From Octopus vulgaris (lineage: Eukaryota), in the NCBI GenBank assembly GCA_951406725.2, contig OX597815.1, positions 177,072,001 through 177,136,000 of the forward strand: a stretch of 64,000 nucleotides of DNA, written 5' to 3'. A program made the position numbers. Positions within the stretch are counted from its first letter, which is position 1. Each line of letters begins with the position of its first letter. Of this stretch, positions 6,001 to 60,000 are shown in pieces.

Positions 6001-9000
6001 CACACATAAATATATATACATATATATACACACATATATAAATATATATTCAATATATACACATATATATAAATATATATACAAGATATACACATATAAA
6101 TATATATATATATACATATGTATTTATATATGTATATATATATATATATGTAAATGTATATATATATATGTATGTAAATATATATATATATGCATTTAGA
6201 TATGTATATATATATAGATAGATATGTTATGTATGTAAATATATATCTGAGTGTTTGTATATATAGATAAATACACGCACGCACACAAATGCATACATAG
6301 ACACACACACACATATACACATCGCTCTTCTTATTCATGTGTATCACTTTTTAAGGGAACAAATATTTATTTTCGCATTTATGCACAAAGGATACAGACC
6401 TATATATAAGCATGGATTGTATTGTGATTAAAATACACCAGTGTACTCCATACATTGTAAAGACAAGGGAAATTATTTTTAGTGAAATGTTCCAGTTTGC
6501 ATTCTTCGGTGCTATAGGCAAATATATCACAACCCATCTTTGTTAAATTTCTTGTACAAGCAATAACTCTTAAAACCATCATTAATAGTTATCTAATGTG
6601 TCACACAAAAGTCTATGATATATGTGTGTGTATCTATCTATCTATCTATCTATTATTGTATCTATCTAAATATATATGTATCTATATGTATACAACACTA
6701 CATCGGCCAAAGTTGTTGTTAGACATCACTGGTTACAATGCGCTTCCTCTCATTACAATATTTTGCCATGCTGCAAAGGCGGTCAGACCGGCATTTCCAT
6801 TAAACGGAAGACCAGTTTGTCGTATGGTTCCCCTTAGGCGGATGAGTGCACTGGAGCAAGCTGAAATGAAAGGTTTCCTCAAGAAAACATCTCTGCTGTG
6901 AATCGAAACCATGACACTGCGATCCCGCAGAGCATAACCAATAATCTTGGCCCTTTCACATAAACACTCGTGTATGTATATATATATATATATATATATA
7001 TATATATATATATATATATATATACACACACACACACACAAGATAGGCCTTCTTTCAGTTTCCGTCTTCCAAAACTCCTCACACGCCTAAAGTGACATGC
7101 AGTGGAACTGAACTCAGAGCCATGTGCTTGGGAGGCAAGGTTGTTACCACACAGCCACGCCTGCGCCTTATATTTATGTGTGGAGAGAGAGAGAGAGAGA
7201 GTAAACAGATGAGATCCAAATACTCTCAATATAGAAAATGCCCATGGGGTAAAATGTGGTTAAAAGAGGAATCCGGGTGAACAGATAAGGGTATAATGAT
7301 ACAAACAACCGAATAAACCAGCTTGGGCCAGATATACGAGATATATGTAAATGCATATATACAAATGCAGAGCGAGAGAGAGAAAGAGAGTGAGAGCAAA
7401 TCAAAACCTGAAAATTTTTTGACGATGCATAAAAAGATTAAAAGTGAGAATGTATGGTGTTACATCAGATTTTTTTTTATCTCTCCACTATGAAGACGGA
7501 TTCCGGGTCTATCGAATGTTTATTTGCTTCCAATATTGTTGCATAGTTTTGTGAACTACAGCTGCCAACTTCATAAAATAAATCCAAGTCCCCGCCCCTA
7601 GAAACTGCTGTAGGGCTTGTAACACCATTCCTTCTGCCCTTTAATTTTCTCTGTCTATACTGTGTGTAAGTTTGCTCTGACAATATATAATAAATATCTG
7701 TATATTTATACTTGAATATCAATCGACTGAATATTCTCAGTCTTTGCTTTTTTCACTATTTACATGTAAACATGCAGATCTATTTTGTATATCTAACTCA
7801 GGAAGTGTTATGCATTTATCTGCATCAATGTCTTTATATATATATATGCGTGTGTGTGTGTATATATATGAGTGTGTATGTGCGTATATATATGAGTGTG
7901 TATGTGCGTATATATATGAGTGTGTATGTGCGTATATATATATGTGTGTGTATGTGTGTATATATATGTGTGTGTATGTGTGTATATATATATATGTGTG
8001 TGTGTGTATGTGTATATATATGTGTGTGTGTATGTGTGTATGTATGTGTATATATATATATATGTGTGTGTGTGTGTATATATATATATATATAATTAAA
8101 GAGTGCAGAATTACGCCGAAACGATCGTTGTGGTAAATAAAGCTTCCAGCATACTCTGTATTAATCATTTAGAATACACATGCAGCGCGCGCGCACGCAC
8201 ACACACGGACATGTATTACGAAATGTTGACATACATAATGAGTAGCGTGTATTTAGGAATACATACCGTATGCTAAAACGTCACTCTATATTAAATCTTC
8301 ATACATTCTTTTATATGGCAGCCATGTTTTAACTGTAAGCAAGTACATATTTGTACGACGAATAAATATGGTTAATTCTGAATTCATACAAAGCCAAACA
8401 GATTCGTTTATATACAAGAAATGATGTATGGAAATCACGGTTGAAGATGAATATATAATTCTGCAGTGAATTTGTTTTGCATCGTATATATAGATGTGTG
8501 CGTGCGTTCGTACGTGTGTGTATTGTGTGTTTTTGAGTGTGTGTGTTTGTGCTATGTATGTGTGTGTATGTGTGTGTATGTGCTATGTATATGTGTATCA
8601 TATATAGCAGAAGTAACAGAGCGACACAAGCTCCTAGAGTCCTGTGCGTTCGCACTCAACAAACTAGTTACAAGTATAAAACCTGTGAGTTTATGTGTGT
8701 TTATAAATATATTTTCTTCTGTATTCTAATATAATTGTGTATTTCTATTATATATATATATATATATTGGTAAAAACGGTAAGATAACAAAAGAAAGAAA
8801 GAGACCTCAATATTATGTAAATAGAGGAAAATTATCTATAAAATGATATGTACAATTACTCAACAGTCAAGATAAAACGCTGAGTTTCAGACGCCGAAGT
8901 AGGAATCCACAACACCAGCTCTTCGGTTATCTGACTATTGAGTAATTGTACATATTATTTTATATATATATATATATATATATATATATATATATATATA

Positions 9001-57000: not shown

Positions 57001-60000
57001 TGGTCGTTATTCTTACTCTCGTTCTGCCGATGATGTTGAAGGTGTTAACGCTGTCAGCAGTATTGATAATAGTGACTGCCAAGGTAAACTTTGCTTTTCT
57101 TCCCGTTGCTTCAAGAAAATGAAATTCGGGCATAGGATTGATTTCATGGAGCAGAACTCTTCCCATATTTTAGCCCAAATTTCAATGCAAGAAAGAAATT
57201 GCATTATTCTTAGGGTGTTGTGTTCTCAGGAGTTCTTCGAGTGGTAAAATAGAACGTTGCGTGTTCTTTGTTCTGATTTTGTACTGAGTTCAAATTCCAT
57301 AGAGATCAACTTTGCATTTTATCACTTCAGGTCGATAAAACAAAGTATTACTACACAACTATTGATGTCGATAGAATCAATCTTCCTCTCTTCGAAAAAA
57401 GTTGCTGGAGTTTCTGGCTGCTGTTGGAGGACAAACACAGATACAAAGACGTACGTGCGCTCACAGCACACATGCACACACTCACACGTTTCTTTCATTT
57501 TCCGTGCATTACATCCGTTCACAAGGCCTTGGTAGGTCCGAGGTTATTGTATAAGACACGCGTCCAAAATGCCACTTTCAGTGTCTGAATCTACAACCAT
57601 GTGGTTAGAAATCAAACATCCTACCATACAGGCAGGCCTGCGCCTAAATGTATCAAAATGTTTTTATCTTGTGGTGATGATGGTGGCGGTGTGCTATAAA
57701 AACACGAATAAAGCGCATATTAATTATTGTTATGTACAGCACAATACTGATTTAACTTTATATAGTAATTTATAGCAAAACTTGTATAGAAATTATGTGC
57801 TTAATCTCCCTGTAGGATTCATCGATTTTTGTCAATCATTAATTCCTAGTTTTATATTATTGACGTCTTCTGTTTTATTGATGCCTATGATCTCTCGATC
57901 ATATTTAGTTAAGCACAAGAAATTCCATGGAGAGTTTAAAACGAACATGATAATTATTTAATAGGCAAAACGCAAACAAATGGTTTAAAAAGGCTTAAAT
58001 GTAGGCAATCAAATTTCTAGTAGTAGCTTCTTTGTATATCCGAATCTAGCGAAAATGACCATACAATTATTTCAAAGGATGTTATTCTTATATCGGGTGA
58101 GAAAATTCGAGAAAAAAAATCTACCGTGTGTATTGGAAAATCCAACGTTTCGGACAAGAAACCATACACGTAGAGTGCTACGTTTACTTTCCGGTAAAAT
58201 GGAAGAAATTTTAACGTTACCAGGCGACGCTCTTGTAGAGAAAGGATTGATGAGGAAACAAAAAAGATGGAGAGAATACACGTTTCTGAATGAACGGTCA
58301 ACGCCTTCTAAATTAACCGGAAGATGATGGAATTTGTTTGAGGCGTGGTTGGCAAGGGAGACAACTTTTGCCAGGGATATGTGTGTATTCCCAAGCACGA
58401 ATGTGTATGCAACGAATATATGCCTCTTTATTTACATATTTATATATATATATATATATATATATATATATATGCCTACTAACTGTGGCAGTGCTACTAT
58501 TGTTTTTAGCGCAAGGAAAACATCTCCTCCAGCTCGCCAACGACACACAATCTGTGTCCGATTAATATTTGCGAGGTCATAGCTCCCATCTCTAGCCTTA
58601 CGTTATACACAGAGACCCGAGTTTCTGGGTGGTTACCCGTCTTCAGTGTGTGTTAATCACTGGCCAATGATGAAGAACTCATTCGACTCGCAAATTACTG
58701 TATCCTTTTTAAAGCGACACACTGCCGCTGATCTCGTAAAAGAGAGAGATAAGTTATATTAAATCTCTGAGCAAGAGATAGACAGTAAAAGTACGGAATC
58801 GTAAAATATATTTGCGAACTAAATGTGGCGGTCCTATAGTGGAGGGTGCTACTGGTGTTTCTAGCCCCTGGAAGACATCTCTTCCAGCTGGCCAACGACA
58901 AACAATCCGTGTCCGACTGGTATTTGCGAGGGAGGTCACCGCACTCATCTCTAGCCTTACGTGATACATACAGACCTGAGTTATGTTTCTCTCGTGTTCT
59001 CTATCTGAAGAATCCTCTAGAAAGGATGCAAGCGCTAATATATGATTTATAAGAACATGTGATATATTAATAAAAATCTGTAAATATAACACCATCCAGA
59101 TTTCTGAGTACGTTATTTCTTCTAATAAATATATATATAAACATAAGCAGCAGTTAGCAGCGTTTTGCTGAAGAGGAGAATTACAATTGTCACTATGTGT
59201 GAGTAGGGTGTTAGGAAACACTTATTTCTAGCAATGTAGGCGTCTCCTAACAGCGTAGTCACATCTAGTGGCATATATATATATATATATATATATATAT
59301 ATATATATATATATCTTTATATAATGTTTGTGTGTGTGTGTGTACGCGCGCGCTTATGTATCTTGAGTGTTTTTGAATGGATGACGGTTAGAAGACCGAA
59401 ACAGTGAGAGATTAGCTGTTTGCTTAATCGACATATGAGATCAATTGAATTAATTAGCATATAAGCGCGGAATACTCAACCGGCATTGTGCCAGGTTGCC
59501 TCTTCGCCTGGAAATATACATTACCATCATAAATAACTGACATGCTGGATCCTCAAAATATCAAATATAAGCAGTCCTATTTGTACGCCTACACATCCAA
59601 CAACAACAACAACCCACCTATCAAAAAGAAAGAATGAAAGAAGAATACAAAGAAAAGTTAAAAGAAAAAAATGGATGTTCGCAGCTAGAAACCCAGTGCA
59701 GATTTCAGTTAGTTAAGATCTAGCGACAACAACAACAAACATTTGTGAATGATATGTAATCATTGTTCAATGATCTGCTTGAAGCGTGTATGTGATTGGG
59801 AATGTGGATTTTCACAGATAACTAATTATAAGTCGACGCAGTCGATCTGTTATTGTACTCACAATTACCACTCTCGATGTAGGGCATCGCGTAGCTGAGT
59901 ATTATATCTAAACATAACGAATAACAGGAAATGTTCACAGTCGCTAGATTTTTTTTAATCAATCTTTCGTGAAGAGTACAAATACTTTTATTTTTGCATG

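What the first reader, a model, noticed from the sequence alone, without database searches (positions are those of the whole stretch)
8760..59000. Window-wide pattern: over a dozen HHR-like motifs of several unrelated families, many abutting (TA)n
Seen: HHR-like motifs near 8.9, 9.15, 13.7, 21.3, 27.2, 27.6, 30.0, 30.3, 40.7, 43.0, 47.8, 50.6 and 58.6 kb, plus a PLE protein remnant at 4.5 kb. Several host elements sit next to TA microsatellites. Inference: a large ribozyme-bearing, PLE-dependent mobilome targeting or generating AT microsatellites, which may contribute to this genome's microsatellite load.
Basis: inference. Interest (0 to 1): 0.7.

Follow-up and report, generated by a model that had tools for sequence, protein, structure and literature searches.

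The report
Decayed hammerhead-bearing retroelements, some in (TA)n
This stretch of non-coding animal DNA holds worn-out copies of several families of small mobile elements that each carry a minimal hammerhead ribozyme motif of a kind already known from Penelope-like retrotransposons, and only some of these families sit in TA microsatellites.

Summary
Partly confirmed. 11 of the 13 claimed positions carry a hammerhead (HHR)-like motif; 8.9 kb (a hairpin) and 21.3 kb (a CORE-SINE-like element) do not. The 11 fall into five repeat families, A, B, C, E and F; A alone supplies six. An orphan at 13944 and a second family C copy at 53191 were not listed. The motifs exceed chance: core + helix II + GAAA gives 6 sites against 0.23 in shuffles (0/300); a complete three-helix descriptor, tuned post hoc, gives 3 against 0.010 (0/500). 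Families share the published PLE "min-HHR" architecture: an unpaired base after A9, short helix I, palindromic helix III. Most copies carry at least one disabling defect, Rfam scores none, and family A shows no compensatory change, so these are relics. Family B forms retrozyme-like tandem arrays. Family A occurs twice as head-to-head inverted pairs. Family E is a partial tandem inserted into a SINE's (TA)n tail. No PLE protein remnant was found; the nearest coding fragment (3.46-3.84 kb) is an AP-endonuclease LINE. TA enrichment fails overall (4/13 motifs within 200 bp, baseline 0.235, P=0.37) and is confined to B, E and F. 25 of 35 TA loci touch neither HHR elements nor that SINE. New members of a known kind.

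The parts
50434..50722 (+). Family A, full-length copy. The 5' region carries A-box/B-box-like motifs. The min-HHR-like motif lies at 50576-50631 (U16.1->A defect).
   Evidence: Self-BLAST, alignment A1, motif string. Rfam found no tRNA or HHR hit.
27143..27394 (-). Family A, left arm of a head-to-head inverted pair. Motif at 27177-27231 (GAAA box reads GAAG).
   Evidence: Inverted repeats I1-I3, 85-97% complementary, 12-nt spacer.
27407..27666 (+). Family A, right arm of the same inverted pair. Motif at 27578-27632 (helix I 3 of 6).
29970..30152 (-). Family A subfamily, left arm of a second head-to-head pair. Motif at 30013-30067 is complete under the flexible descriptor: helix I 5 of 6, helix II 6 bp, ACGU palindrome.
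30214..30417 (+). Family A subfamily, right arm of the second pair. Motif at 30299-30353 (C3->U).
13693..13850 (+). Family A, 5'-truncated copy. Motif at 13712-13766 (helix II broken).
47374..47958 (+). Family B tandem array of 2 units plus 10 nt. The HHR at 47806-47855 has G8->C with helix I 6 of 6. The core at 47517 has an internal deletion. There are internal (TA)n runs at 47458-47470 and 47745-47765. The array is bracketed by (AT)15(GT)4 and TA/TG-rich DNA.
58474..59012 (-). Family B array of about 1.4 units. A complete type I HHR lies at 58602-58653: helix II 4 bp, helix III of 2 bp plus a UCGG loop, helix I 5 of 6. The upstream HHR copy is truncated. The 3' end abuts (AT)n at 58441-58473.
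42752..43453 (-). Family E partial tandem. Direct repeats 42757-42897 and 43313-43453 (99% identical) flank a 411-bp interior. The interior carries an HHR-like motif at 42940-42999 with an 8-nt palindromic helix III. (TA)n lies on both sides, and the element sits inside the tail of the family D SINE at 42571-42737.
40664..40711 (-). Family C motif: core plus unpaired G plus 6-bp helix II plus GAAA. No helix I.
53185..53232 (+). Family C motif: same box layout, with helix II differing from 40705 by a change on both sides of one pair (A-U versus G-C). Helix III is an 8-nt palindrome and helix I is 4 of 6. An A-rich run follows.
9039..9172 (-). Family F element. The motif at 9125-9172 has A6->U but is otherwise complete. 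The 3' end abuts (TA)39. A related 3' end lies at 31969-32086(+).
13939..13985 (+). Orphan motif: core, two unpaired A, 4-bp helix II, GAAAC, and a short hairpin ending GUC. Helix I is absent, and the predicted cleavage site abuts a (CATA/TA)n array.
21375..21548 (+). Not part of the HHR set. This is the family D CORE-SINE-like element (about 10 copies or fragments in the window) with its own (TA)n(TG)n tail. It is the real content of the claimed 21.3 kb site.
   Evidence: literature passages.
8833..8968 (.). Not part of the HHR set. This is an inverted repeat or hairpin abutting (TA)39, and it is the real content of the claimed 8.9 kb site.

Best explanation
The window is non-coding animal DNA. 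From recall of its abundant SINE it is probably cephalopod, but this is unverified. It is littered with old copies of at least five families of short, protein-less retroelements, each carrying a minimal type I hammerhead ribozyme of the kind described for Penelope-like elements (PLEs) and their non-autonomous derivatives.

How it most likely works (all steps inferred from the literature, none shown here):
1. The element is transcribed. For family A this may be from its own pol III-type A/B boxes, for the others by read-through.
2. Two hammerheads on a multimeric transcript, or on two transcripts, pair through the short palindromic helix III and cleave after the U-H site.
3. This releases unit-length RNA, which may be circularised.
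4. A PLE reverse transcriptase/GIY-YIG endonuclease encoded elsewhere in the genome copies it into new sites.
5. That produces tandem, partial-tandem and head-to-head inverted insertions. For families B, E and F it favours (TA)n targets.

Shown here: the motifs, their excess over chance, the family structure, the insertion layouts, and the TA contacts of B, E and F. Also shown: most copies are now mutated and presumably inert.
For: 1. Motif excess over dinucleotide shuffles: 6 against 0.23 (0/300), 7 against 0.415 (0/400), 3 against 0.010 (0/500).

2. Features the first descriptor did not demand recur across families and match the 2014 description of PLE min-HHRs (passages). An unpaired nucleotide after A9 is present in all 6 hits. 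Helix I is 4-6 bp. Helix III is palindromic or wobble-palindromic in A (ACGU), B, C, E and F.

3. Family A: in the majority consensus printed all 13 proposed pairs are standard pairs. 83.3% of cells pair, against 16-50% in slid registers.

4. Family B: helix I differs between the two loci while staying paired, with 6 of 6 pairs at 47812. The best-conserved block starts right after the predicted cleavage site. Units of about 255-385 bp lie in tandem at 43-45% GC. This fits the published non-LTR retrozyme layout (passages).

5. Family C: the two copies differ on both sides of one helix II pair.

6. Layouts typical of PLE integration (passages): 2 of 4 family A loci are head-to-head inverted pairs with motifs 240-360 nt apart on opposite strands, and family E is a partial tandem with 99% identical direct repeats.

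7. E lies within the (TA)n tail of an older SINE. B and F ends abut TA arrays. That is 4 of 4 events at 10 bp or less, against 0.229 by chance.

8. PLEs, including recently active families, are reported in Octopus vulgaris (passages).
Against: - No Rfam hammerhead model scores any site at E<=10, even when only 281-361 nt are searched.
- The strict descriptor finds nothing. The flexible descriptors were written after the candidates had been seen.
- Most copies have a core or helix defect.
- Family A shows 0 compensatory changes, and its pair statistics do not exceed column shuffles.
- Family B monomers fold no better than shuffles (z -1.2 and -1.1).
- No PLE RT or GIY-YIG fragment is in the window. 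The only RT-related fragment is from an AP-endonuclease LINE.
- The tRNA origin of the family A head is not confirmed by Rfam or by relaxed ARAGORN.
- Only 64 kb could be examined, so the families have 1-6 copies each.
- Cleavage activity was not tested.
Confidence: 0.62

Rival explanations
1. The motifs are chance resemblances inside ordinary repeats. A CTGANGA...GAAA pattern arose once per family, was multiplied by transposition, and never acted as a ribozyme.
For: - Rfam finds no hammerhead.
- CTGANGA boxes alone are at background (30 against 25.2).
- Six of the eleven motifs come from one family.
- There is no compensatory change in family A.
- The descriptors were post hoc.
- Family C lacks helix I at 40705.
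Against: - Five families plus an orphan, with no detectable sequence similarity between families (one search found none), share the same three-helix layout.
- They also share the same unrequested details: an extra base after A9 in 6 of 6 hits, and a palindromic helix III.
- Shuffles give 0.01-0.4 sites where 3-7 are seen.
- Helix I stays paired while changing between the two family B loci.
Confidence: 0.13
2. These are ordinary LINE-dependent SINEs and satellites. An AP-endonuclease LINE, not a PLE, moves them. The TA arrays are simply SINE/LINE-type 3' tails, and the hammerhead is a passenger.
For: - The only RT-bearing relative found is an AP-endonuclease + RT protein.
- Family D, which has no hammerhead, carries (TA)n(TG)n tails, showing that TA tails need no ribozyme.
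- Family A has A/B-box-like motifs.
- Schistosome SINE-like elements combine a pol III promoter with a hammerhead (passages).
Against: - The two arms of each family A pair cover the same whole element, head to head. From my knowledge of L1 twin priming, which was not tested here, LINE-type inversion joins different parts of one copy instead.
- The partial tandem with direct repeats (E) and the tandem arrays (B) are the layouts described for PLEs and retrozymes (passages).
- No 3' similarity between these families and the LINE fragment in the window was seen, although only one LINE fragment was available.
Confidence: 0.17
3. One reading: the hammerhead mobilome creates the TA microsatellites and is a major source of the genome's microsatellite load.
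For: - Family B units contain internal (TA)n at a fixed unit position, 47745-47765 and 47458-47470.
- B, E and F ends touch TA arrays.
Against: - Only 5 of 35 TA loci touch hammerhead-bearing elements, and these come from 3 insertion events. 25 of 35 touch neither these elements nor family D (two rows corrected by eye).
- Motif-level enrichment is absent (4 of 13, P=0.37).
- E sits in a TA tail that other family D copies also have without E, so that array came first.
- Family A (0 of 4 events) and family C (0 of 2 events) are not near TA.
Confidence: 0.06

Closest known systems
Minimal type I hammerheads (min-HHRs) of Penelope-like elements (Cervera & de la Pena 2014, PMC4209133, passages read; Lunse et al. 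2016, seen only as a reference entry)
   Same: - CUGANGA and GAAA boxes.
- An unpaired nucleotide between A9 and 10.1.
- Helix I of 4-6 bp with no closing loop.
- Helix III reduced to a 4-8 nt palindrome.
- High sequence diversity between families.
- Dispersed single motifs, plus pairs a few hundred nt apart on opposite strands.
   Different: - No adjoining PLE ORF or recognisable pLTR in this window.
- Helix II is 4-6 bp rather than the 7-8 bp quoted for schistosome families.
- G10.1-C11.1 is present in family A and at 40705, but not in E, F or 53191.
- Most copies are mutated.
Metazoan non-LTR retrozymes (Cervera & de la Pena 2020, PMC7229834, passages read; Li et al. 2026 bioRxiv, abstract and passages read)
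   Same: Family B: head-to-tail units of about 255-385 bp, 43-45% GC, no ORF, a type I hammerhead at each unit junction, and only dimer-scale arrays.
   Different: - The hammerhead copies are not all intact (G8->C, an internal deletion, a truncation), so the arrays would not count as 'active'.
- The predicted monomer RNAs are not unusually self-paired.
- The contact with (TA)n is not mentioned in the passages I read.
Schistosome SINE-like elements with a hammerhead, Sm-alpha/Sj-alpha (described in review PMC6765202, passages read; the original paper is not held)
   Same: Family A: a short non-coding element with pol III-type promoter boxes upstream of a hammerhead motif.
   Different: - The schistosome ribozyme is a canonical, active type I hammerhead in tandem repeats.
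- Family A carries the min-HHR form and appears dispersed or as head-to-head pairs.
- Pol III transcription of family A is untested.
(TA)n target preference of PLEs: Naiad, and hypothesised for Neptune (Craig et al. 2021, PMC8557442, passages read)
   Same: Families B, E and F lie in or against (TA)n. E splits a pre-existing TA array. Target-site duplications cannot be read for that reason.
   Different: Naiads are said to lack canonical hammerheads, and in cephalopods to survive only as remnants. Which PLE clade, if any, moved B, E and F is unknown.
Octopus CORE-SINEs OR1/OR2 (Ohshima & Okada 1994, not read; mentioned in PMC4758252 and PMC4824008, passages read)
   Same: Family D: a tRNA-like head followed by a CORE-like central block, and very abundant.
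   Different: Family D has no hammerhead motif. It is relevant only because it accounts for one claimed site and several TA arrays. Its identity with OR1/OR2 rests on my recall of the sequence and was not tested.

Membership tests
Hammerhead ribozyme, type I (min-HHR variant) | Conserved core boxes C3-U4-G5-A6-N7-G8-A9 and G12-A13-A14, plus A15.1-U16.1 and H17. | tested here: met
   Fully met at 58646-, 42994-, 30062-, 27583+ and 53191+. One core change each at 27226-, 30304+, 47812+, 50581+ and 9166-.
Hammerhead ribozyme, type I (min-HHR variant) | Three helices around the core, in the right register. | tested here: met
   Met at 3 sites in 3 families under a flexible, post hoc descriptor, against 0.010 expected. 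0 sites under the strict descriptor. Family A has 83% of cells paired, against 16-50% when slid.
Hammerhead ribozyme, type I (min-HHR variant) | Covariation supporting the helices. | tested here: inconclusive
   Family A: 0 compensatory pairs among 6 copies. Families B and C: single paired differences between just two copies each.
Hammerhead ribozyme, type I (min-HHR variant) | Match to curated covariance models (Rfam hammerhead families). | tested here: not met
   No hit at gathering score or at E<=10. I do not know whether PLE min-HHRs are represented in those models.
Hammerhead ribozyme, type I (min-HHR variant) | Self-cleavage. | not testable with these tools
   Needs in vitro transcription of monomeric and dimeric constructs.
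Penelope-like element (autonomous) | An ORF with a telomerase-like RT and a GIY-YIG endonuclease. | tested here: not met
   Pfam scan of 320 ORF fragments found no RT or GIY-YIG. These were 62 of the 118 fragments of 90 aa or more; I dropped the other 56 as overlapping microsatellite arrays. All 258 fragments of 55-89 aa that passed a low-complexity filter were also scanned. Shorter fragments were not scanned.
PLE-derived non-autonomous element | PLE-type insertion layouts: partial tandems giving pseudo-LTRs, and an adjacent inverted copy. | tested here: met
   E: direct repeats 99% identical around a 411-bp interior. A: two head-to-head pairs.
PLE-derived non-autonomous element | Sequence similarity to the terminal repeats of a PLE in the same genome. 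| not testable with these tools
   No eukaryotic genome or repeat library was available.
Metazoan non-LTR retrozyme | Tandem units of about 150-450 bp, each with a type I hammerhead, low GC, and no ORF. | tested here: met
   Family B arrays 47374-47958 and 58474-59012. The hammerhead copies are partly defective.
Metazoan non-LTR retrozyme | Highly self-paired monomer RNA; expression as circRNA. | tested here: not met
   Folding z-scores of -1.21 and -1.10. Circular RNA is not testable here.
tRNA-derived SINE (family A head) | A 5' region derived from a tRNA, with A and B boxes. | tested here: inconclusive
   A-box-like and B-box-like strings at the expected spacing, read by eye. No Rfam tRNA hit and no relaxed ARAGORN call on the right strand. 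Family D heads, taken to be tRNA-derived, gave no Rfam tRNA hit either, so the negatives are weak.

The most novel reading that the evidence does not exclude
Family A would be a pol III-driven, tRNA-headed SINE whose body is a PLE-type minimal hammerhead and which integrates PLE-style as head-to-head pairs. That would make it a SINE class mobilised by Penelope-like elements rather than by LINEs, linking SINEs, retrozymes and PLEs in a (probable) cephalopod genome. Two full-text searches and the octopus-plus-hammerhead search turned up no description of such an element. The searches were not exhaustive, and Repbase could not be consulted.
Probability: 0.2. Interest if true: 0.6.

Novelty: new member of a known kind. 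Interest (0 to 1): 0.35.

Why it matters
If confirmed genome-wide, these families would extend the catalogue of PLE-type hammerheads and retrozyme-like arrays to a lineage where none of the papers I found describes them. They would also offer natural test cases for two open questions raised in the papers I read: what the minimal hammerheads do for PLEs, and whether PLE endonucleases really prefer (TA)n. Family E, which splits the TA tail of an older SINE, is a clean example of an insertion into an existing microsatellite. The practical lesson for the scan is that motif counts must be collapsed by repeat family, and that in this genome a hammerhead-free SINE supplies some TA arrays.

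Tried and rejected
- Rfam at gathering score and at E<=10 on the whole window (swamped by microsatellite/miRNA look-alikes), on two large sub-ranges and on two short stretches: no hammerhead at any candidate. The single Hammerhead_HH9 row (58710-58760+, 14.2 bits, E=0.94) lies elsewhere, lacks the core, and was rejected.
- First naive scan requiring helix II to start flush with the core: 2 irrelevant hits. Dropped.
- Strict min-HHR descriptor: 0 hits.
- ARAGORN, default and relaxed: no support for a tRNA head in family A.
- ESM Atlas look-up of the 4443-4637(-) fragment: no usable hit.
- Pfam on ORF fragments: only a mariner fragment and sub-threshold noise.
- Folding of family B monomers: not more stable than shuffles.
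- Co-folding of two motif copies: uninformative, because any homodimer can swap its own helices. It only drew attention to the palindromic helix III segments.
- Literal-string literature search for the family A core and the family D block: 0 papers.
- The original schistosome paper is not held.
- Target-site duplications were not pursued. A 29-nt direct repeat flanking the 30 kb pair is low-complexity element sequence and was rejected.
- Not done: no look-up of cluster members for the unnamed LINE relatives, and no scan of the prokaryotic genome collection (irrelevant to an animal repeat).
- Unseen: figures, the supplementary descriptor files of the 2014 paper, and bioRxiv supplements. My descriptors follow the text only.

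Full report
**What the window is.** It is 64 kb at 32-41% GC with no N. It has 68 tandem-repeat rows, mostly TA, TG and CATA microsatellites, and no long ORF. The content is non-coding animal DNA full of short repeats. The most abundant repeat, family D, has about 10 copies or fragments. It has a tRNA-like head and a CORE-like block, and I recall it as the common octopus SINE. Papers I read in passages list OR1/OR2 of octopus as CORE-SINEs. The species assignment was not tested.

- Core + 0-1 unpaired nt + helix II of at least 4 bp + GAAA occurs 6 times against 0.23 (0 of 300 dinucleotide shuffles reach 6).
- Adding a palindromic or hairpin helix III and U-H gives 7 against 0.415 (0 of 400).
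- Demanding all three helices gives 3 against 0.010 (5 of 500 shuffles had one site, none had two).
- A stricter version gave 0.

I wrote the flexible descriptors after seeing the candidates, guided by the text of Cervera & de la Pena 2014, so these numbers are upper bounds on significance. Two features were not demanded by the first descriptor. All six of its hits have an unpaired base after A9. In families A, B and C the bases after GAA form a palindrome or wobble-palindrome ending in U-H. These are two of the four features that paper names as arguing against chance; its G10.1-C11.1 pair is met only in family A and at 40705, and its within-family covariation is not seen in family A (passages).

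**Family structure.** Self-comparison and alignments collapse the claimed sites into families.

*Family A* covers 13.7, 27.2, 27.6, 30.0, 30.3 and 50.6 kb. It is an element of about 290 bp. Its long copies start with A-box- and B-box-like strings, followed about 140 nt later by the motif. In the majority consensus the motif has a 5-bp helix I, an unpaired A, a 6-bp helix II starting G-C, GAA, the palindrome ACGU and then U. Five of the six copies have a core or helix defect; only 30062(-) passes the flexible descriptor, with helix I at 5 of 6. 83% of cells pair in the proposed register against 16-50% when slid, but there is no compensatory change. The ancestral sequence therefore fits a min-HHR, and the copies decay without visible constraint.

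*Family B* covers 47.8 and 58.6 kb. It forms head-to-tail arrays of units of about 255-385 bp.
- The motif at 58646(-) is complete.
- The motif at 47812(+) has G8->C, but helix I is a perfect 6 bp built from different bases than at 58646.
- A third copy has lost the stretch between two short repeats, and a fourth is truncated.
- The best-conserved block begins right after the predicted cleavage site.
- The 47 kb array spans exactly two units plus 10 nt, beginning and ending at the same unit position.

*Family C* comprises 40705(-) and the unlisted 53191(+). The two share the box layout and a 6-bp helix II that differs on both sides of one pair. 53191 also has an 8-nt palindromic helix III and helix I at 4 of 6. 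40705 has no helix I.

*Family E* is at 43.0 kb. The motif has a 4-bp helix I, an 8-nt palindromic helix III and an interrupted helix II.

*Family F* is at 9.15 kb on the minus strand. It is complete except for A6->U, and a related 3' end lies at 32.0 kb.

*An orphan* at 13944(+) has the core, helix II and a short helix III but no helix I.

*Two claimed sites have no motif.* This holds even with one core mismatch allowed. 8.9 kb is an inverted repeat. 21.3 kb is a family D SINE between TA runs.

**Insertion layouts.** Two of the four family A loci are head-to-head inverted pairs covering the same element on both arms.
- Arms 27143-27394 and 27407-27666 are 85-97% complementary with a 12-nt spacer.
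- Arms 30013-30152 and 30214-30353 are 80% complementary with a 61-nt spacer.

Family E is a partial tandem: two direct repeats, 99% identical, around a 411-bp interior. Craig et al. 2021 describe partial tandems forming pseudo-LTRs and an adjacent inverted copy as typical of PLEs. Cervera & de la Pena 2014 mention paired min-HHRs about 100-700 bp apart on opposite strands (passages). Family B matches the text description of metazoan non-LTR retrozymes, which a 2026 preprint derives from PLE terminal repeats (abstract and passages). One retrozyme property is not met: the two family B monomers fold no better than shuffles.

**The PLE remnant.** ORF fragments around 4.4-5.1 kb have no Pfam match, and the Atlas gave no usable hit. 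In all, 320 fragments were scanned without any RT or GIY-YIG hit. These were 62 of the 118 fragments of 90 aa or more; I dropped the 56 that overlap microsatellite arrays. All 258 fragments of 55-89 aa that passed a low-complexity filter were also scanned. The fragment at 3456-3842(+) is 88% identical to the C-terminus of a 1033-aa protein carrying RVT_1 and an Exo_endo_phos_2 endonuclease domain. It is therefore an AP-endonuclease LINE, not a PLE. A mariner transposase fragment lies at 26649-26852(-). PLE dependence therefore rests on motif type, layouts and literature. That literature includes a report of recently active Penelope families in Octopus vulgaris (passages), which is relevant only if my species guess is right.

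**TA microsatellites.** There are 52 runs of at least 6 TA units, merging into 35 loci, and 23.5% of the window lies within 200 bp of one.
- Insertion-event level: 4 of 11 events have an edge within 10 bp of a TA run, against 0.229 for random intervals of the same lengths, P=0.23. The count becomes 5 of 11 (P=0.08) if the orphan, which abuts a CATA/TA array with fewer than 6 pure TA units, is included.
- By family: B 2 of 2, E 1 of 1, F 1 of 1, A 0 of 4, C 0 of 2. The B+E+F grouping is post hoc.

Family E lies inside the (TA)n tail of the family D copy at 42571-42737. Other D copies carry the same (TA)n(TG)n tail without E. That array therefore existed first and was the target. Of the 35 TA loci, 5 touch hammerhead-bearing elements and 6 touch family D ends. 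One search tagged four of those six; I added 21539-21556 and 42729-42761 by eye because they overlap D 3' ends. One locus touches both kinds of element, and 25 touch neither. The idea that this mobilome generates the microsatellite load is not supported in this window.

**Mechanism and verdict.** The best reading is that these are relics of several families of PLE-type, hammerhead-bearing, non-autonomous retroelements. They would process their transcripts by dimeric hammerhead cleavage and be copied by a PLE enzyme encoded elsewhere. Three families show a TA-target habit like that reported for some PLE clades. The alternatives are chance motifs, LINE-dependent SINEs with passenger motifs, and microsatellite generation. 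They are weighed in the Rival explanations section.

All of this is known biology in other animals: PLE min-HHRs, retrozymes, schistosome SINE-like hammerhead elements, and PLE preference for TA. The novelty is membership rather than kind. My searches (literal strings) found no description of hammerhead-bearing repeats in cephalopods, or of a tRNA-headed SINE carrying a PLE-type min-HHR. They covered only the held library.

**What stayed unchecked.**
No further copies, no autonomous partner and no genome-wide statistics could be obtained.
- Figures, the 2014 supplementary descriptor and bioRxiv supplements were not visible.
- Cleavage and expression need the bench.

Noticed in passing
window 3456-3842 (+): C-terminal tail of an AP-endonuclease + RT (LINE) protein, 88% identical over 73% of the query to an unnamed 1033-aa protein with RVT_1 and Exo_endo_phos_2 domains.
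   Followed up: partly
window 26649-26852 (-): Fragment of a mariner-type transposase (Pfam Transposase_1, E=4.7e-9), just left of the family A inverted pair.
   Followed up: no
window 21375-21548, 42571-42737, 25905-26070, 37741-37911, 48697-48860, 49115-49261, 57490-57634, 19345-19417, 7089-7167, 12189-12221: Family D: a CORE-SINE-like, tRNA-headed repeat with its own (TA)n(TG)n 3' tail. It accounts for 6 of the 35 TA loci and carries no hammerhead.
   Followed up: partly
window 8833-8869 / 8932-8968: A 37-nt inverted repeat (92% complementary, 62-nt loop) running directly into a perfect (TA)39 array. It is MITE-like or a hairpin-forming microsatellite flank, and no other copy was seen in the window.
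   Followed up: partly
window 13413-13528, related copies 10024-10185 and 13337-13437: A long, near-perfect hairpin that scores 61.5 bits to a plant miRNA model (below its gathering score of 83). A 90% identical relative lies 3.4 kb away. It is probably a MITE, not a miRNA.
   Followed up: no
window 47374-47958: The family B array begins and ends at the same position of the unit (10-nt terminal redundancy, 9 of 10 identical), so it spans exactly two units plus 10 nt. This would fit copying of a circular or multimeric template, but it is a single case.
   Followed up: partly
window 49503-49701 and 47110-47202: A 49-bp tandem repeat (4.1 copies, 94% matches, C-rich) and a 42-bp repeat (2.2 copies). 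Neither is explained.
   Followed up: no
window-wide, e.g. 19807-19879, 39991-40325, 14677-15056: TA/TG/CATA microsatellites produce most of the 324 sub-threshold Rfam rows as matches to miRNA models such as mir-297, mir-1277, mir-3149 and mir-466. All are below gathering score and are artefacts of low complexity.
   Followed up: yes
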